A stretch of 64,000 nucleotides of DNA from a virus. The notes beneath the pieces were generated by a model that saw nothing but the letters and a program-made list of their open reading frames with translations, had not been told where the DNA came from and did not search any database. The stretch lies in the IMG/VR virus record IMGVR_UViG_3300027857_000012, positions 32,001 through 96,000 of that record, one strand, 5' to 3'. Below are positions 40,335-48,303 of this stretch, one piece after another (positions within the stretch are counted from its first letter, which is position 1; every line of letters starts with the position of its first letter). A program made the translations under genes and the position numbers.

Positions 40335-40356
40335 CATTTCTACTCCGCCACTTTCA

Positions 40357-40398
40357 TTCAAGCGACTGACTTCGTGTTGGTCGCTTGAATTCTTTTTG
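40357..40398 (+). terminator. Rho-independent terminator
   Basis: ttcaagcgac...gtcgcttgaa followed by ttcttttt. Confidence 0.65.
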
Positions 40399-40455
40399 GT
40401 GAATTTCCAGACAAAATGAATTCGAAAAATGTTGAAAAAATTCACTAAAAAAGTA

Positions 40456-40484
40456 TTTACTTTTTGCGCATAACATGTTATAAT
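40456..40484 (+). promoter_or_regulatory. promoter driving the tRNA/ncRNA array
   Basis: TTTACT-17-TATAAT; near-identical to the 26254 promoter. Confidence 0.75.
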
Positions 40485-40583
40485 AAAAATGTAAGTTGAT
40501 AGAGGAAATTTGAACATCGCTCCTAATGGACGATTGAGCAAACTTGTGTGATTCTAGCTACGAATTTTCTCTAATAACTTTTA

Positions 40584-40709
40584 TGGATGATCGTCTATCG
40601 GTTAAGACGAACCAGTATATTGCCCAGAATGGTAGTATCAAACTGAGCAATGTCCAAATACTACTTGGACTGGTGGGAAACAGAGGTTCGAGTCCTTTGT
40701 CATCTGCCA
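40584..40709 (+). ncRNA. tRNA-scaffolded RNA with kissing-loop domain replacing the anticodon arm
   Basis: Acceptor tggatga/tcatctg+CCA, D-arm gtct/agac, T-arm ggttcgagtcc; the insert has two hairpins whose loops gtagtat and atactac are complementary. Confidence 0.75.
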
Positions 40710-41102
40710 TTTCTCTCATGTATTCGCACTCGTGAAATCGAGTGAGACGTACATTCACAATCGAGGAGCAGATTCGATCACAGATGGGTCGTGACGCTCT
40801 ACAAATTGCAGAATAGCAATCTTTTCATTTGTTTAGGTCCTTCATCTTCCAAATGAAGTTGACACCTGCCAAGATGAAGAGATGTCTCTCTAGTGTAAGA
40901 GGCCAAGGGGTTTGTCGCCACCTTATCGCACGTCGAACATGTTCGGAAGTTTCTAGCATGGCCGCTAGAAGAGAGATCCATATTTGTTCTGTTTTCTCAC
41001 GAAGAGTGCATACATACAATTGGATTTTGTTCCCGAAAGGGATGCACTCTTGACTTGAACAGCGCAAATAGTTTTCTCAAGTGTCCTCTCACGCAACGAA
41101 CG

Positions 41103-41175
41103 TACAAACTAGCTCACTTGGTAGAGCGCTTGACTTCTAATCAGGATGTAACTGGTTCGATTCCAGTGTTTGCTC
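41103..41175 (+). tRNA. tRNA-Arg(UCU), acceptor end mismatched
   Basis: Cloverleaf; loop cttctaa. Confidence 0.7.
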
Positions 41176-41218
41176 CTTCGGGAGTTGTTCGTTCAACTCG
41201 GACAGGAGAGAAATGTGG

Positions 41219-41340
41219 GGGTGTTCCGAGTTCGGCAAATGCGGACTTGTTCTTTCACCAAGAAGCGGTCTGACCTTCGTAAGAAGTTCAGTAAACTGGT
41301 GAAAATGCAAGGAGAGGTGGTTCGACTCCATCAGCACCCA
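41219..41340 (+). ncRNA. tRNA-scaffolded RNA with long rod replacing the anticodon arm
   Basis: Acceptor gggtgtt/agcaccc-a, T-arm ggtgg ttcgact ccatc, rod cttgt..tttcacca/tggtgaaa..gcaag. Confidence 0.65.
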
Positions 41341-41598
41341 TTACATCATTGGTCCACTCTGTTTTGGATCCAGGACAGGTGCTCTTAATGGTGTAAACAC
41401 TTCAAGCCCTTCTCAAGTAGCATGCAGCTCTAAGTTCCACTGCTTTGACTCTCACCACGGGAGGAAGTAAGGGAGGCAGGCGATTCGCTTTAAGTCCCTA
41501 AGACTATGAGGATATCAGCTTGAAGATGATCAGCAAATGACCACGTCCCCTTGAACGACAAGTACACGTTCAGAGAGAGTGCCGATTTGCTGATCTGT

Positions 41599-41682
41599 GG
41601 AGGGAACCCGAGCTGGTTAAGGAGACTGTCTTGAAAATAGTTAGACGGCAACGTCTTGTGGGTTCGATTCCTACTCCCTCCG
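41599..41682 (+). tRNA. tRNA-Ser(UGA)
   Basis: Cloverleaf with long variable arm; loop cttgaaa. Confidence 0.9.
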
Positions 41683-41744
41683 TGTTTTCTCTGAATGTAT
41701 CACTCCGAAACGGCAATTCATCTGCGCATTCAGAGAAAATTTCT

Positions 41745-41815
41745 GCCTCTTTCGTTCAACGGTAGGATGCCCATTTCGTACGAGGAAGACGACTGTTCAA
41801 TTCAGTCAAGAGGCT
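41745..41815 (+). tRNA. atypical tRNA, possibly Thr(CGU), with poorly paired anticodon stem
   Basis: Perfect acceptor and T stems; loop ttcgtac. Confidence 0.55.
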
Positions 41816-41882
41816 TGCTCCTTCTACACATATTCACGATATTCTCCTAAAATATGTGCAGGACAATGTAGAAGGGGTTTTT

Positions 41883-41955
<73 letters not shown>

Positions 41956-42005
41956 TCCACTCATTGCCGTGGGGGCTACGGGTGGTATAGTGTTGAAAAT
42001 CAAGG

Positions 42006-42079
42006 AAGCGGTGCCTGATTGTAGGTGAAATTGTGTAGGCTCATTACCTATACTGTTGGTTCAAATCCAATCACTGCTT
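42006..42079 (+). ncRNA. D-armless tRNA-like RNA
   Basis: aagcggtg/cactgctt stem and T-arm gttgg ttcaaat ccaat; a single hairpin in place of the D and anticodon arms. Confidence 0.5.
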
Positions 42080-42148
42080 TAAGAATCAGTATGAACAGAA
42101 CTCCTTTCTTAATATCCTGGTAGAATATATTCATACTGATTCTTTTCT

Positions 42149-42314
42149 GCTCTCGTCGTCCAGCGGTCTAGGACATTCGTATGCTTTTTATCTTCCTTGC
42201 AGTGATTCTAGATATACTGCCACAAAGAAGTTACTTGTGTAGCTGCCAAGGCGTTTCTTTGCAACAGGTAGAGAGGGTACGAAAGGCCTTGGTTCGAATC
42301 CAAGCACGAGAGCC
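42149..42314 (+). ncRNA. tRNA-scaffolded RNA with ~100-nt multibranch insert
   Basis: gctctcg/cgagagc, D-arm gtcc agcggtcta ggac, T-arm cttgg ttcgaat ccaag; insert closed by ttcgta/tacgaa. Confidence 0.75.
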
Positions 42315-42318
42315 TTTT

Positions 42319-42391
42319 GTCTTCGTCGTCTAGTGGTCTAAGACGGTGGTCTCCAAAACCACTTACGGAGGTTCGAGTCCTTCCGAAGGCG
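42319..42391 (+). tRNA. tRNA-Trp(CCA)
   Basis: Cloverleaf; loop ctccaaa. Confidence 0.9.
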
Positions 42392-42490
42392 TGAGCCGTG
42401 GACTGCTACGATCGCTAGCTCGTCACGGGCCTTGTGCGGAACATAGTCCGCTATGTGACAAGAATCAAGGGTACAGAGAACGCAGTATCT

Positions 42491-42606: not shown

Positions 42607-42679
42607 CCCGATATGGTGAAATCGGCAAACACCTAGGGCGAGGGGCCCTAGAGTGAGGGTTCGAGTCCCTCTATCGGGA
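42607..42679 (+). tRNA. atypical tRNA (Leu-type D arm, no variable arm, U-less anticodon loop)
   Basis: cccgata/tatcggg; anticodon hairpin ctagggc gaggg gccctag. Confidence 0.55.
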
Positions 42680-43025: not shown

Positions 43026-43141
43026 CGGTCACTGATAACTCAACGGTAGAGTTTCACTCCAACAGGTCATGCTGAAAATCGACTGCAATGTTGACTCTGC
43101 AGAGATGGAGTAGTAAAAGGTTCGACTCCGCACAGTGATCG
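43026..43141 (+). ncRNA. tRNA-scaffolded RNA with ~45-nt insert
   Basis: cggtcactg/cagtgatcg, D-arm actc aacggta gagt, actcca/tggagt closing the insert, T-loop ggttcgactcc. Confidence 0.6.
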
Positions 43142-43317: not shown

Positions 43318-43553
43318 CTCCCTTCACTTGGTGGATCAATCTACGAGGCGAACTGGAGTCTTTCTTGGCCGGCGGTCTAGCCCACCGACGTAGACGGGTG
43401 GAATTTGGTGGAATCACCAATTCAGTGCTACAATAGCTATCACTGATGCAAAACGATTCAACACTGCAAGCCTCGCGATAAGGCGATCCTGAAGCATTGT
43501 CAAGGATATTCCGAACTGAGCTATCGGTGAGGAAGATATCGCATTCATGGGAG
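43318..43553 (+). ncRNA. structured RNA leader upstream of endonuclease
   Basis: Closed by ctccc/gggag (the RBS); several hairpins; atagct/agctat loop complementarity. Confidence 0.45.
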
Positions 43554-43559
43554 TGTAAT

Positions 43560-44198
43560 ATGTCTTTCAAAAATAAACATCATTCCAATGAAGCCAAACA
43601 AAAAATTTCTGCTGCTGCAAAAAGGTCTGGTGAAAAAAATGGCAACAATGGGAATACGTTTAGTGGCCATTATCATTCTGCTGAAACAAAAGCAAAAATA
43701 GGTGCAAATACAAAGAAAATATTAACAGGAAAATCATTACCATCCATTCAAAAACAACATATTTCAAAATCGTTAATTGGTAAAACGTATTTAAATAGAA
43801 AAGTTTCAGATGATGGTAAAAAGAGACTTTCAAAAAGCAGAATAAAGTTTTGGGAACCTTTGACTGATGAAGAGAGACAAAAACGAACTAATCATTTGAC
43901 ACAGCAGAGTGCAAAGTTTCAAGGTACAAAACCAGAATGCATTTTTGAAGAGATACTTATTAATAATAATATTCAATTCGAAAAACAAAAATGGATTAAA
44001 AGGTATAAAGTTGATTTCTATCTTCCCGAAAGAAATTTGATCGTCGAAATACAAGGATGTTACTTTCATGGATGTGAGCAATGTGGACATAATTCTGAAA
44101 AACAATTACAAGCGAGAGATAATGATAACTCCCGAAAATTAAATTTAGAAAAATTAGGATATCAAGTGAAGTTCATTTGGGAACATGAACTTGTATAA
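43560..44198 (+). CDS. NUMOD3 + DUF559/Vsr-like homing endonuclease
   Basis: HSNEAKQKIS and HSAETKAKIG NUMOD3 motifs; TKPE, VDFY, VEIQGCYFHGC, D..RK..L...GY.V..IWE; AT-rich. Confidence 0.8.
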   Translation: MSFKNKHHSNEAKQKISAAAKRSGEKNGNNGNTFSGHYHSAETKAKIGANTKKILTGKSLPSIQKQHISKSLIGKTYLNRKVSDDGKKRLSKSRIKFWEPLTDEERQKRTNHLTQQSAKFQGTKPECIFEEILINNNIQFEKQKWIKRYKVDFYLPERNLIVEIQGCYFHGCEQCGHNSEKQLQARDNDNSRKLNLEKLGYQVKFIWEHELV

Positions 44199-44387: not shown

Positions 44388-44459
44388 CGTACTATAGATT
44401 AGCAGGAAGATCATCGCAACGGGACATGCGAGGCGGTAGTTCGAACCTACCTAGTACGT
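44388..44459 (+). tRNA. tRNA-Pro(GGG)-like with 8-nt anticodon loop
   Basis: tcgca acgggaca tgcga; C1:G72. Confidence 0.6.
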
Positions 44460-44973: not shown

Positions 44974-45075
44974 GGGACTCTAGTGTACAGTGCACACTCT
45001 CGATGTATGGCCATACGGGACGAGAGAGGATCAGACGGCTGACGAGTCGTTCGGTGCAATTCCCTGAGACGTCCC
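44974..45075 (+). ncRNA. degenerate tRNA-scaffolded RNA
   Basis: gggac/gtccc, D-arm gtgt/acac, elongated arm ending in a ggcc tetraloop, T-like loop ggtgcaattcc. Confidence 0.45.
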
Positions 45076-45307: not shown

Positions 45308-45418
45308 ATGAGTGCTGTGAATTTGTCCGTTCAACTCGGACCACTCATTTCTGGGTGAAACCAGATCGTCTCCAGGTAGCAGAATGACGCGCTGAGATGC
45401 GTTGCCATTCGACTCATG
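45308..45418 (+). ncRNA. circularly permuted tRNA mimic (YrlA/Y-RNA-like topology)
   Basis: Order: outer stem, T-arm gtccg ttcaact cggac, closed acceptor cactca tttc tgggtg, D-like arm acc...ggt, outer stem. Confidence 0.55.
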
Positions 45419-46646: not shown

Positions 46647-46650
46647 TTGT

Positions 46651-46721
46651 TCGTCTCTGGTGTAATGGTAACACGAGTGGCCTTGGACCACTTATTCTCT
46701 GTTCGAATCGGAGGAGACGAG
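46651..46721 (+). tRNA. tRNA-Gln(UUG)
   Basis: U1:A72, G73; loop ccttgga. Confidence 0.85.
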
Positions 46722-46836
46722 TTCAGGGCAGGTGCAAAGAACACTGTTTTAAGCTTTTTTACACCTTCGGGTGTCCTTCACCATTGAACGTTGTTCTTTG
46801 GACTGTTCTGAAAGGGAACGAGTTCGCTCGTTCTTT

Positions 46837-46921
46837 GTCTGAGTAGTGTAAGAGAAACACACCTCATGATCGGCCTTGCAAACACATTGAGGAAATAAGA
46901 GTGCAAGTCTCTTCTCAGACA
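46837..46921 (+). ncRNA. tRNA-scaffolded RNA with 21-nt anticodon loop
   Basis: gtctgag/ctcagac-a, D gtgt/acac, cctca/tgagg, T-arm aagag tgcaagt ctctt. Confidence 0.7.
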
Positions 46922-47337: not shown

Positions 47338-47410
47338 CTGGGTGTAGGATAGCAGCAAGTCCGTCTGCCCTGGGAGCAGAAGATCGAGGGTGCGAGTCCC
47401 TCCACTCAGA
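47338..47410 (+). tRNA. tRNA-Pro(UGG)
   Basis: C1:G72, A73; loop cctggga; T-loop tgcgagt. Confidence 0.85.
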
Positions 47411-47486
47411 CATGATGCTGCCACGACAGCATCAAGTGTTCTTTTCACAGTGCTTTTGACCATTGCTGTGTTGTGAAAAGAACGTT

Positions 47487-48127: not shown

Positions 48128-48303
48128 GGAGTCATCGTCTAGGTGGAAGGACAGTTACATATTCTCAGAAGATCATGCACGTATTTGTGGAGAGATGGCT
48201 ACATATCTTACATGATCTTTTGGCAGTGCGGTTCCATGAGTAGGGGCACAAAATGCCATGAGGAAACATGTGACAAACAGTCGTTCGAGTCGACTTGACT
48301 CCA
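48128..48303 (+). ncRNA. tRNA-scaffolded RNA with ~110-nt insert
   Basis: ggagtca/tgactcc-a, D-arm gtct..ggac, gttacat/atgtgac closing the insert, T-arm agtcg ttcgagt cgact. Confidence 0.75.

What the first reader, a model, noticed from the sequence alone, without database searches (positions are those of the whole stretch)
40584..40709. First RNA of the array: tRNA body fused to a three-way junction with a perfect 7-bp kissing loop
The stem accagt/actggt encloses hairpin atattgcccag/ctgagcaatgt and hairpin ccaa/ttgg. Their loops GTAGTAT (40632-40638) and ATACTAC (40658-40664) are exact complements. This topology resembles compact aptamer or ribozyme folds, but I do not recognise the sequence. 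It is one of only two elements in the array with an encoded CCA.
Basis: seen in the sequence. Interest (0 to 1): 0.72.

Follow-up and report, generated by a model that had tools for sequence, protein, structure and literature searches.

The report
Oversized tRNA-Gln-like gene with folded insert
The first gene of this soil phage's tRNA array is a tRNA-shaped RNA whose anticodon loop is split by a 47-base folded insert that pairs with the anticodon, one more example of the unexplained oversized tRNA genes already seen in other phages.

Summary
Every stem and both loops sit at the stated coordinates, and the three-way junction is the lowest-energy fold of the 64-nt domain. A 7-bp loop-loop match arises by chance in about 0.05-0.16% of shuffled loop pairs.

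The element (40585-40709) is a complete cloverleaf body with an encoded CCA. I read it as a tRNA-Gln(UUG)-type anticodon arm split between nt 32 and 33 by a 47-nt insert. The six bases after the insert (CUUGGA) equal positions 33-38 of the array's own tRNA-Gln. The insert pairs with the anticodon, so the transcript cannot decode.

No homologue was found, so the kissing loop has no covariation test. No Rfam ribozyme or riboswitch matches.

It is one case of a wider kind: 62 of 108 pattern hits in IMG/VR are acceptor-closed oversized tRNA units. Streptomyces BE-cluster phages carry a conserved, unannotated analogue. Phage T4 rnaC/rnaD and the "enigmatic introns" of Lak megaphage tRNAs are the precedents in print. 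This scan has noted the same kind on at least eight other genomes.

Most likely it is an unspliced, non-decoding tRNA mimic (0.4). A spliced pre-tRNA (0.25) and a decayed gene (0.2) remain open.

The parts
40356..40390 (+). Intrinsic-terminator-like hairpin (15 pairs plus a T run) that ends the upstream protein operon
40456..40484 (+). Best sigma-70-like promoter of the array region (TTTACT, 17 nt, TATAAT, with TG extension; 10 of 12). It makes the element the first gene of the tRNA-array transcription unit, after a leader of about 94 nt.
   Evidence: This is a consensus match only; the region's total promoter count does not exceed shuffles (16 found, 14.8 expected).
40585..40591 (+). Acceptor stem, 5' strand (GGAUGAU)
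   Evidence: Pairs 7 of 7 (two G-U pairs) with 40699-40705
40592..40610 (+). D arm (CGUC, loop UAUCGGUUAA with GG, GACG) plus A26. An alternative register gives U8, a GUCU/AGAC stem and A14/G18/G19/A21.
   Evidence: Sequence reading. The Rfam tRNA alignment covers it. It closely resembles the D arm of the array's tRNA-Trp.
40611..40616 (+). Anticodon stem, 5' strand (ACCAG = 27-31) plus U32
40617..40663 (+). 47-nt insert between nt 32 and 33 of the anticodon loop
   Evidence: ARAGORN with intron option at 90% threshold: tRNA-Gln(ttg), intron at position 33, length 47. Single copy in the genome.
40617..40653 (+). Hairpin 1: 7 bp (one U-G), a C/A mismatch, 3 bp, and a 15-nt loop AAUGGUAGUAUCAAA
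   Evidence: MFE of the domain
40632..40638 (+). GUAGUAU in loop 1, complementary to loop 2
40654..40668 (+). Hairpin 2: CCAA of the insert paired to U34 U35 G36 G37 of the relic anticodon loop, with the 7-nt loop AUACUAC
   Evidence: and my numbering
40658..40664 (+). AUACUAC, loop 2. Its last base is C33 of the relic loop.
40664..40669 (+). Relic of anticodon-loop positions 33-38 (CUUGGA; anticodon UUG). It is identical to the same positions of the array's tRNA-Gln at 46650-46722.
40670..40674 (+). Anticodon stem, 3' strand (CUGGU = 39-43)
40675..40681 (+). Variable loop GGGAAAC. The '(G)GAAAC' type is shared with many oversized units in IMG/VR.
40682..40698 (+). T arm: AGAGG, UUCGAGU, CCUUU
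40699..40709 (+). Acceptor stem 3' strand (GUCAUCU), discriminator G, and encoded CCA

Best explanation
The element is a transcribed gene derived from a tRNA-Gln(UUG)-type tRNA.

Shown: it keeps the parts that tRNA-processing enzymes recognise, namely a 7-bp acceptor stem, D and T arms with the elbow nucleotides, a G discriminator and an encoded CCA.

Shown: its anticodon loop is split between nt 32 and 33 by a 47-nt insert.

Shown as the lowest-energy fold:
- The insert forms a long hairpin.
- Its CCAA pairs with U34 U35 G36 G37 of the old anticodon loop.
- U32 pairs with A38.
- The result is a gap-free three-way junction in which the anticodon is buried. The RNA as transcribed cannot read a codon.
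- The two hairpin loops can additionally form 7 base pairs with each other.

Inferred: RNase P and 3' trimming release a roughly 125-nt RNA that is as stable as a tRNA. It is not spliced, and it works as a non-decoding tRNA look-alike. The tRNA body serves as a processing and stability scaffold, and the junction domain is what is presented.

My best guess for its role is to occupy a host factor that binds tRNA-Gln-like RNAs, for example an anticodon nuclease or another tRNA-directed defence or modification enzyme. That last step is conjecture.
For: Body and position:
- Acceptor pairs 7 of 7, with a T arm and CCA.
- The Rfam tRNA model aligns the body with a 68-nt insertion in place of the anticodon arm (17.6 bits).
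- A terminator followed by the best promoter lies just upstream.

Fold:
- The junction is the MFE; z = -2.64, 8 of 1000 shuffles as good.
- The loop-loop complement has p of 0.0005-0.0016 per loop pair.
- The U-G pair in hairpin 1 and the two G-U pairs in the acceptor fit an RNA on the + strand.

Origin:
- ARAGORN (intron option, 90% threshold) reads tRNA-Gln(ttg) with a 47-nt insert at position 33.
- The flank CUUGGA equals positions 33-38 of the array's tRNA-Gln, including its unusual C33, G37 and A38. By my arithmetic, a 6-mer match to one of about 22 loops has p of about 0.005-0.01.

The kind is real and under selection elsewhere:
- 62 of 108 pattern matches in IMG/VR are acceptor-closed units of 109-141 nt. 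About 1.4 would be expected by chance.
- 35 of 45 examined lie within 1.5 kb of ordinary tRNAs.
- The Streptomyces BE-phage analogue, also a tRNA body with a closing stem and a three-way junction, has compensatory changes in 17 of 33 pairs and an invariant insert core. That pattern is cargo-like, not intron-like.
- Another IMG/VR unit (L041, and identical L052, L081, L086) has the same CCAG/CUGG closing stem and two hairpins whose loops are complementary over 7 nt.
- T4 rnaC/rnaD are annotated small stable RNAs in a tRNA cluster, and rnaC folds with a T arm plus long hairpins.

No splicing machinery was found in the phage: no RtcB, no PF09414 ligase, no relative of the Jay2Jay Rnl1 N-terminal part.
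Against: - There is no homologue of this element, so neither the junction nor the loop pairing has comparative support.
- There is no RNA evidence of any kind.
- An intact relic of the anticodon loop is equally what a spliceable pre-tRNA would show.
- One IMG/VR family (L025/L083 versus L117/L125) has conserved tRNA-Gln 'exons' around a fast-diverging, covarying insert. That is an intron-like pattern.
- The unconstrained MFE of the whole 126 nt uses a different pairing of GGUAGUAU and does not even form the acceptor stem.
- The loops are A/U-rich with 3-nt repeats (GUAGUA / UACUAC), which slippage could create.
- The decoy function has no direct support. No partner protein is encoded nearby: 7 of 10 neighbouring ORFs have no Pfam family and 5 of 10 have no PHROG.
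Confidence: 0.4

Rival explanations
1. It is an intron-bearing pre-tRNA-Gln(UUG). The 47 nt (40617-40663) are removed after transcription by an unknown, non-archaeal, non-group-I route. Splicing yields a 78-nt tRNA with the loop U-CUUGGA. The junction, and perhaps the loop pairing, is the structure the excision machinery recognises, or it keeps the tRNA inactive until excision.
For: - Deleting one contiguous segment restores a 5-bp stem and a 7-nt loop whose positions 33-38 equal those of the array's own tRNA-Gln.
- The insert pairs with the anticodon, as tRNA introns of archaea and eukaryotes typically do (established knowledge).
- The discriminator G and a weak 1:72 pair fit glutamine identity (recalled rules).
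- Lak megaphage tRNAs carry conserved 'enigmatic introns', with presence/absence variants (PMC6784885, passages read).
- The IMG/VR family L025/L117 shows conserved tRNA-Gln flanks (AGAGA-CUUUG ... GA-UCUCU) around a diverging, covarying insert.
Against: - No protein-dependent tRNA splicing is known in bacteria (established knowledge).
- By inspection I could not place a bulge-helix-bulge motif at the boundaries.
- 47 nt is far too short for a group I intron, and Rfam finds none.
- The phage has no RtcB, PF09414 ligase or Rnl1-like match. The PF09511 search had no valid control.
- The array already has an uninterrupted tRNA-Gln(UUG).
- ARAGORN needs a lowered threshold to make the call, and its intron calls on 45 other oversized units are inconsistent.
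- The body resembles the array's tRNA-Trp and Glu-type bodies more than its tRNA-Gln.
Confidence: 0.25
2. It is a decaying duplicate tRNA gene. An insertion or slippage event broke the anticodon loop, and the remaining structure is a by-product of local inverted duplication. The loop complementarity is chance. The RNA, if made, has no function.
For: - It is an orphan with no relatives.
- It is redundant with the intact tRNA-Gln.
- Its stems are nearly perfect, as expected of young inverted repeats.
- 3-nt repeats are present in both loops.
- The array contains other degenerate units, for example 43026-43141 with a poor T stem.
Against: - The body is fully intact, with 7 of 7 acceptor pairs and one of only two encoded CCA ends among 29 units.
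- It sits first after the operon's promoter.
- The domain folds better than 992 of 1000 shuffles.
- Comparable units elsewhere are conserved with covariation: 17 of 33 and 16 of 25 pairs.
Confidence: 0.2
3. The junction is a ligand-binding aptamer or a small self-cleaving ribozyme grafted onto a tRNA body.
For: A closed three-way junction with two hairpins and loop-loop pairing is the general architecture of purine riboswitch aptamers and of some hammerhead forms (recalled). The fold is stable.
Against: - No Rfam family matches, even at E<=10 on the element alone.
- The junction has no unpaired nucleotides that could form a pocket or a catalytic core.
- There is no expression platform.
- There are no homologues to show conserved core nucleotides.
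Confidence: 0.05

Closest known systems
'Enigmatic introns' in tRNA genes of Lak megaphages (Devoto et al. 2019, Nat Microbiol, PMC6784885; abstract and 'intron' passages read)
   Same: Oversized tRNA genes inside phage tRNA sets that bacterial tRNA finders miss. The intervening sequences are conserved, the mechanism is unknown, and the sequences were reported as unclassified by Rfam. [quoted passage not shown]
   Different: The Lak phages are 540-kb gut phages of Prevotella with no relation to this 134-kb soil phage. Their intron sequences are in Supplementary Table 6, which I could not see, so similarity of position or fold is untested. One Lak insert is itself predicted to be tRNA-like; this one is not.
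Phage T4 species 1 and species 2 RNAs (rnaC, rnaD)
   Same: Small stable RNAs encoded in the phage tRNA cluster, next to a homing-endonuclease gene (annotation). rnaC folds with a tRNA-type T arm and terminal stem plus long extra hairpins, z = -4.57. To my recollection their function is still unknown.
   Different: rnaC lacks a recognisable D arm and anticodon stem. The element here keeps a full cloverleaf body and a relic anticodon loop. I saw no sequence similarity by eye and did not run a search.
Unannotated 132-136-nt tRNA-like element of Streptomyces BE-cluster phages
   Same: tRNA body, then a 7-8-layer closing stem at the anticodon-stem position, then a three-way junction with two hairpins. 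It shares the '(G)GAAAC' variable loop and T arm (21 of 22 nt). It is missed by ARAGORN and Rfam. Covariation supports 17 of 33 pairs.
   Different: Its insert has an invariant core (a GUGCAC loop and CUAGUAGCGCUGCUAG) and no relic anticodon. A covariance model of it scores this element (26.2 bits) no better than ordinary tRNAs (29.9, 29.6), so only the tRNA body is shared.
Archaeal and eukaryal tRNA introns (bulge-helix-bulge; review PMC4090602 seen in a search listing only)
   Same: An insert in the anticodon loop that pairs with the anticodon.
   Different: I could not place a bulge-helix-bulge motif. The host is bacterial: the phage has a DnaE-type polymerase, and an initiator-like tRNA has a 1:72 mismatch (my reading). 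I did not search for a splicing endonuclease.
Purine-riboswitch-type three-way junction with loop-loop docking (recalled)
   Same: A closing stem, two side-by-side hairpins and loop-loop pairs. Here 4 bp plus 7 kissing pairs would match the 11 layers of hairpin 1.
   Different: No junction nucleotides, no Rfam match, no expression platform, and 7 plain Watson-Crick pairs where the riboswitch has a tertiary loop network.
Engineered 'tRNA scaffold' for recombinant RNA (Ponchon and Dardel 2007; recalled, not read)
   Same: The anticodon stem of a tRNA carries a foreign structured RNA, while the body secures processing and stability.
   Different: That is a laboratory design. Whether nature uses the same logic here is inference.

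Membership tests
Canonical decoding tRNA | Acceptor stem, D arm, T arm with a T loop | tested here: met
   7 of 7 acceptor pairs and a 5-bp T stem with UUCGAGU. The Rfam alignment covers the body.
Canonical decoding tRNA | 5-bp anticodon stem with a free 7-nt loop; passes standard detectors | tested here: not met
   60 nt lie inside the 6-bp closing stem. ARAGORN at default settings misses it. Rfam tRNA scores 17.6 bits against a cut-off of 29.
BHB-type (archaeal/eukaryal) tRNA intron | Two 3-nt bulges separated by a 4-bp helix at the splice sites | tested here: not met
   By inspection of 40611-40674 against the ARAGORN boundaries. No script was run.
BHB-type (archaeal/eukaryal) tRNA intron | Splicing endonuclease plus RtcB or another ligase available | tested here: inconclusive
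   The phage has no RtcB, PF09414 or Rnl1-like match. The PF09511 control failed. The endonuclease family was not searched. The host is unknown.
Group I intron in a tRNA anticodon loop | Catalytic core of 200 nt or more with P3-P9 | tested here: not met
   The insert is 47 nt. Rfam shows no Intron_gpI match at E<=1 or E<=10.
Known riboswitches and small self-cleaving ribozymes (Rfam 15) | Match to a curated covariance model | tested here: not met
   only tRNA
tmRNA | tRNA-like domain with G3:U70, tag reading frame, ARAGORN or Rfam detection | tested here: not met
   No tmRNA call. Position 3:70 is A-U and the D arm is full (sequence reading).
YrlA / bacterial Y RNA | Ends in the Ro-binding stem with a loop-closed acceptor mimic; Ro60 (TROVE) partner | tested here: not met
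   The ends lie in the acceptor stem. There is no TROVE match in the genome, with a valid control. No RF02553 match.
Phage oversized tRNA-like RNAs (T4 rnaC/rnaD; Lak 'intron' tRNAs; IMG/VR units found here) | Lies in a phage tRNA cluster; tRNA acceptor and T arm closed around tens of extra nucleotides; missed by standard tRNA finders | tested here: met
Phage oversized tRNA-like RNAs (T4 rnaC/rnaD; Lak 'intron' tRNAs; IMG/VR units found here) | Accumulates as a stable RNA of full length | not testable with these tools
   Only the source DNA run holds the sequence.
BE-phage tRNA-like element (model R1) | Scores above ordinary tRNAs with the family model; GUGCAC loop and CUAGUAGCGCUGCUAG hairpin | tested here: not met
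   26.2 bits, against 29.9 and 29.6 for ordinary tRNAs of the window. The motifs are absent.
IMG/VR 'CAGCA' family (model R2) | Mini-hairpin after the D arm, covarying hairpin, invariant CAGCA linker, intact anticodon arm | tested here: not met
   It is the top hit at 29.0 bits, but ordinary tRNAs score 28.3 and 27.3. The element has GAGCA where the family has CAGCA, and it lacks the mini-hairpin.

The most novel reading that the evidence does not exclude
Phages of bacteria carry a previously unrecognised class of short tRNA intervening sequences. These are neither group I introns nor bulge-helix-bulge introns. They bury the anticodon in a folded junction, so the tRNA is made inactive and is switched on by excision during infection. 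This element would then be a silenced pre-tRNA-Gln, and its kissing-loop junction would be the recognition structure.

A bolder variant: the mutually complementary loops here, the complementary loops of L041, and the palindromic GUGCAC loop of the BE-phage element join such RNAs to one another into dimers or larger assemblies.
Probability: 0.15. Interest if true: 0.85.

Novelty: new variant of a known kind. Interest (0 to 1): 0.5.

Why it matters
Oversized tRNA-shaped genes have been known since phage T4 (rnaC, rnaD), and in 2019 those of megaphages were called 'enigmatic introns'. Nobody knows what they do or whether they are spliced.

This element contributes in three ways:
- It is a clean case in which the insert can be placed to the nucleotide (32/33 of a tRNA-Gln-type loop), and the insert visibly buries the anticodon.
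- The search it prompted shows that such units are common in uncultured phages: 62 acceptor-closed units from one narrow pattern.
- The same search found a conserved analogue in cultivable Streptomyces phages. That makes the question testable at the bench, by Northern blot, deletion and probing in Jay2Jay or NootNoot.

If the units are spliced, that would be a new RNA-processing route in bacteria. If they are not, they are a widespread family of tRNA mimics that probably bear on phage-host conflict over tRNAs.

Tried and rejected
**Homologue searches that found nothing for this element**
- blastn of 40400-42400 and of the element alone against 50,697 phage records gave only generic tRNA pieces and hits at E of 0.3-4.
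- An exact 34-mer search in IMG/VR gave 0 hits.
- The Cas4-like neighbour gene had 0 relatives in IMG/VR.
- DnaE had 2 relatives in IMG/VR at 33-36% identity and 5 in JGI metagenomes at 28-33%.
- ARAGORN finds no tRNA in these loci. One weak Rfam tRNA hit occurs in one of the two whole records that could be searched; L007 and L008 were not held.
- The upstream ORF is an orphan: its only match is itself.
- blastn-short of the insert against all 127 fetched loci gave nothing beyond chance. A shared 9-mer UGGUAGUAU with L036 is not significant by my arithmetic.

**No RNA holder listed**
- The look-up of sequencing runs returned only the probable source DNA run, so I did not use read laying.

**Protein partners**
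- No TROVE, RtcB, PF09414 ligase or PF01743 CCA-adding enzyme in the genome.
- The PF09511 search had no working control.
- tblastn with the N-terminal 216 aa of Jay2Jay RNA ligase found nothing and had no positive control.
- 10 neighbouring ORFs gave no RNA-related family in Pfam. 10 ORFs gave none in PHROGs, apart from a homing endonuclease, a Cas4-like exonuclease and DnaE.

**Ideas rejected**
- MITE or repeat element: the sequence is single-copy in the genome.
- Archaeal virus: the phage has a DnaE polymerase and bacterial-type tRNA features.
- Class II tRNA with a long variable arm: the extra sequence lies inside the anticodon stem.
- Minus-strand promoter inside the element: there is a 10 of 12 match at 40641-40614, but promoter-like matches in the region do not exceed shuffles.
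- Membership in the BE-phage or 'CAGCA' families.

**Other blanks and limits**
- The 'CAGCA' family has no match among cultured phages.
- My IMG/VR pattern search had no control pattern set beforehand. The control I used is internal: acceptor pairing of at least 6 of 7 in 62 of 108 matches, against about 1.4 expected. An earlier scan note reports that pre-set controls went against a similar family elsewhere, so prevalence should be read with care.
- In six literature searches, the only paper I saw on short inserts in phage tRNA genes was the Lak study (preprint and published version). I did not open a listed review of bacterial group I introns (PMC3984707). Supplements are closed, so Lak Table S6 was not seen.
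Full report
**Where it lies**

The window is bases 32001-96000 of a 134,001-bp IMG/VR virus record rated complete by CheckV. The only sequencing run that holds the stretch is a soil metagenome, probably its source.

The phage has a DnaE-type polymerase, 31-34% identical to those of gut phages and of Streptomyces BE-cluster phages. No close relative exists in any collection I could search.

A tRNA array of about 9 kb runs from 40.5 to 49.4 kb. ARAGORN finds 18 tRNAs and Rfam 21. A strong terminator-like hairpin (40356-40390) closes the preceding operon. The best sigma-70-like promoter of the region (40456-40484) follows, so the element is the first gene of the array unit.

**The observation**

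The three-way junction is the minimum-energy fold of the 64-nt domain 40611-40674. It scores -18.5 kcal/mol, and the next topology scores -16.9. It is more stable than 992 of 1000 dinucleotide shuffles (z = -2.64).

The loops GUAGUAU and AUACUAC are exact complements. This happens in 0.16% of shuffles of the two loops and in 0.05% of loops drawn from the array's composition. The duplex is worth -5.7 kcal/mol.

A competing nested helix (AUAUUGCC with GGUAGUAU) uses the same segment, and it appears in the unconstrained fold of the whole RNA.

On geometry, which I reasoned and did not compute: hairpin 2 (4 bp) plus 7 kissing pairs equals the 11 layers of hairpin 1. Four-nucleotide linkers flank the pairing segment in loop 1. 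A side-by-side arrangement is therefore feasible.

**What it is**

The body is a full cloverleaf:
- The acceptor pairs 7 of 7.
- The D loop carries GG.
- The T arm is AGAGG-UUCGAGU-CCUUU.
- The discriminator is G, followed by CCA.

Its D and T arms are almost those of the array's tRNA-Trp.

Standard detectors miss it. On the element alone, the Rfam tRNA model gives 17.6 bits, with a 68-nt insertion in place of the anticodon arm.

With the intron option and a lowered threshold, ARAGORN reads tRNA-Gln(ttg) with 47 nt inserted at position 33. I think that reading captures the origin of the gene:
- The closing 'stem' ACCAGU/ACUGGU is a 5-bp anticodon stem plus a U32:A38 pair.
- The six bases that follow the insert, CUUGGA, are identical to positions 33-38 of the array's uninterrupted tRNA-Gln at 46650-46722. 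That tRNA has the unusual loop C-CUUGGA with C33, G37 and A38.
- The CCAA of the insert pairs with U34 U35 G36 G37.

So the anticodon is buried, and the RNA as transcribed cannot decode.

**What it is not**

- No Rfam family other than tRNA matches at E<=1 over the array or at E<=10 on the element alone.
- It is too short for a group I intron.
- I could not place a bulge-helix-bulge motif.
- It is not a tmRNA: there is no ARAGORN call, 3:70 is A-U, and the D arm is full.
- It is not a Y RNA: the topology is wrong and there is no Ro60 gene.
- It is single-copy, so it is not a repeat element.

**The wider kind**

A weak blastn hit of the variable loop plus T arm (21 of 22 nt, E = 4) led to an unannotated region of Streptomyces phage Jay2Jay.

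That region holds a 136-nt tRNA-shaped unit. It has a closing stem at the anticodon-stem position that opens into a three-way junction. ARAGORN and Rfam do not detect it.

The unit matches 39 BE-cluster phage records. I aligned eleven of them:
- 17 of 33 predicted pairs show compensatory changes.
- Acceptor stems differ between clades.
- The insert has an invariant core: a GUGCAC loop on a covarying stem, and CUAGUAGCGCUGCUAG.

A covariance model of this unit scores the present element at 26.2 bits, no better than ordinary tRNAs at 29.9 and 29.6. It is therefore an analogue and not a homologue.

I then scanned IMG/VR with a pattern made of the shared D-arm motif, a 60-90-nt gap and the T loop:
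- It gave 108 matches in 107 contigs.
- In 62 of these, the 7 nt before the D arm pair with the 7 nt after the T arm at 6 or more positions; 49 pair at 7 of 7. About 1.4 would be expected by chance (plus my arithmetic).
- The other 46 include pairs of adjacent ordinary tRNAs.
- There are 45 distinct sequences.

Of the 45 acceptor-closed loci among L022-L101 that I examined:
- 35 have ordinary tRNAs within 1.5 kb.
- Default ARAGORN overlaps the unit in only 2, and both are adjacent-tRNA artefacts.
- With the intron option it makes a call in 37, with inconsistent anticodons.

Several families stand out:
- (a) A 'CAGCA' family. 24 sequences carry the motif and I aligned 20, dropping L043 and L076 as false motif hits, L087 as aberrant and L126 as near-identical to L029. 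16 of 25 pairs are compensatory. This family has an intact anticodon-like arm whose three central bases differ between near-identical copies.
- (b) L025/L083 and L117/L125. These have conserved tRNA-Gln-like flanks around a diverging, covarying insert with a T-arm-like hairpin, which is an intron-like pattern.
- (c) L041 (and identical L052, L081, L086). It has the same CCAG/CUGG closing stem and AAAC variable loop as the present element, and two hairpins whose loops are complementary over 7 nt.

A model of family (a) puts the present element on top at 29.0 bits, but ordinary tRNAs follow at 28.3 and 27.3. The element is not a specific member.

**What is in print**

Devoto et al. 2019 reported tRNAs with 'enigmatic introns' in Lak megaphages. 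They stated that introns in phage tRNAs had not been reported before (PMC6784885, passages read). [quoted passage not shown] Their sequences are in a supplement I could not open.

Phage T4 carries rnaC and rnaD, annotated as small stable RNAs, at the end of its tRNA cluster beside the homing endonuclease segB. rnaC folds with a tRNA-type T arm and long extra hairpins.

Earlier notes of this scan describe the same kind of unit on at least eight other genomes, with the same two precedents. One of those notes reports RNA libraries that hold the unit unspliced. I did not check those notes, apart from the T4 annotation.

**How it most likely works**

Shown:
- The gene has an intact tRNA body with CCA.
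- It has a promoter-proximal position.
- It has a stable junction fold that buries a relic tRNA-Gln anticodon.

Inferred:
- RNase P and 3' trimming release an RNA of about 125 nt.

From there the readings split:
- **Unspliced, non-decoding tRNA mimic (0.4).** No splicing route of this type is known in bacteria. No ligase or RtcB is encoded. An intact tRNA-Gln is already present. The best-conserved analogue, in the BE phages, has a conserved insert core with no relic anticodon.
- **Spliced pre-tRNA-Gln (0.25).** It is kept alive by the exact relic loop and by family (b).
- **Recent, functionless wreck (0.2).** It is kept alive by the element's orphan status and its near-perfect stems.
- **Aptamer or ribozyme (0.05).** It has no support beyond topology.

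**Verdict**

The element is a new, orphan variant of a known but unexplained kind. Its main value is as a sharply defined example. It also led to a cultivable system, the BE phages, in which the kind can be tested.

Noticed in passing
L011:1396-1531 (Jay2Jay NC_029098 about 100,926-101,061); L012:217-351; L013:217-351; L014:201-333; L015:202-334; L016:202-334; L017:202-334; L018:205-337; L019 and L020:202-333; L021:198-331: An unannotated, conserved 132-136-nt tRNA-shaped RNA that matches 39 Streptomyces BE-cluster phage records. It has a tRNA body, a covarying closing stem and a three-way junction, with an invariant GUGCAC loop and a CUAGUAGCGCUGCUAG hairpin. 17 of 33 pairs are compensatory. 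It has its own TTGACA/TATAAT-like promoter in Genie2. A T4-like RNA ligase gene lies about 0.85 kb downstream in Jay2Jay. A constant 7-codon frame (GCA ... TAG TAG) runs through it, but there is no G3:U70.
   Followed up: partly
IMG/VR loci L029, L030, L032, L033, L039, L044, L051, L053-L055, L062, L065, L072, L073, L090, L092, L100, L103, L108, L128 (alignment A2): A family of 109-122-nt tRNA-shaped genes in large phage tRNA arrays, many ending in ACCA. After the D arm come a mini-hairpin, a covarying hairpin and an invariant CAGCA linker, then an intact anticodon-like arm. The three central loop bases of that arm differ between near-identical copies (GUC, UCU, GUU, UUC, UCC, GCU; one copy has an 8-nt loop containing CUA). 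16 of 25 pairs are compensatory. There is no match among cultured phages.
   Followed up: partly
L025:10697-10811 (= L083) and L117/L125: tRNA-Gln-like genes (U1:A72) with AGAGA-CUUUG[about 45 nt]GA-UCUCU. The flanks are conserved, while the insert diverges, keeps a covarying stem and carries a T-arm-like hairpin (GG-UUCAAnU-CC). This is an intron-like pattern.
   Followed up: no
L041:246-375 (identical in L052, L081, L086): A 130-nt tRNA-Glu-like body with a CCAG/CUGG closing stem. It has two hairpins whose loops AAUUCUAGAAC and GAAUACUAGAAUA are complementary over 7 nt and contain the palindrome CUAG.
   Followed up: no
L078, L107, L110, L115, L123: A high-GC family of 133-135-nt tRNA-shaped units. 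The insert holds an embedded T-arm-like hairpin (GGGG-UUCGAGU-CCCC) and a hairpin with a GUGCAC loop like that of the BE-phage element. The loop is GUGCAU in L107 and differs altogether in L123.
   Followed up: no
window 41219-41340, 42143-42314, 43026-43141, 44974-45075, 46837-46921, 48128-48303: Six more oversized tRNA-shaped units in the same array. The unit at 41219-41340 has its anticodon stem extended into a rod capped by a GUAA tetraloop. Its 5' flank UCUUU plus 3' flank AU could restore a Lys(UUU) loop, and ARAGORN and Rfam call no tRNA-Lys in the array.
   Followed up: partly
window 44388-44459; 46650-46722; 47338-47411; 42607-42679: Unusual anticodon loops in otherwise ordinary tRNAs of the array: an 8-nt loop (ARAGORN anticodon 'ggga'); C33 in tRNA-Gln(UUG) and tRNA-Pro(UGG), with loops CCUUGGA and CCUGGGA; and G33 in tRNA-Pro(AGG).
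   Followed up: no
window 43497-44198: An A/T-rich ORF with homing-endonuclease PHROG matches (HNH and other endonuclease families) sits inside the tRNA array. This parallels segB in the T4 tRNA cluster.
   Followed up: partly
window 41187-41203 and 45325-45341: Two orphan T-arm-like hairpins that differ at one base (GUUCG-UUCAACU-CGGAC and GUCCG-UUCAACU-CGGAC), lying between tRNA units with no acceptor partner.
   Followed up: no
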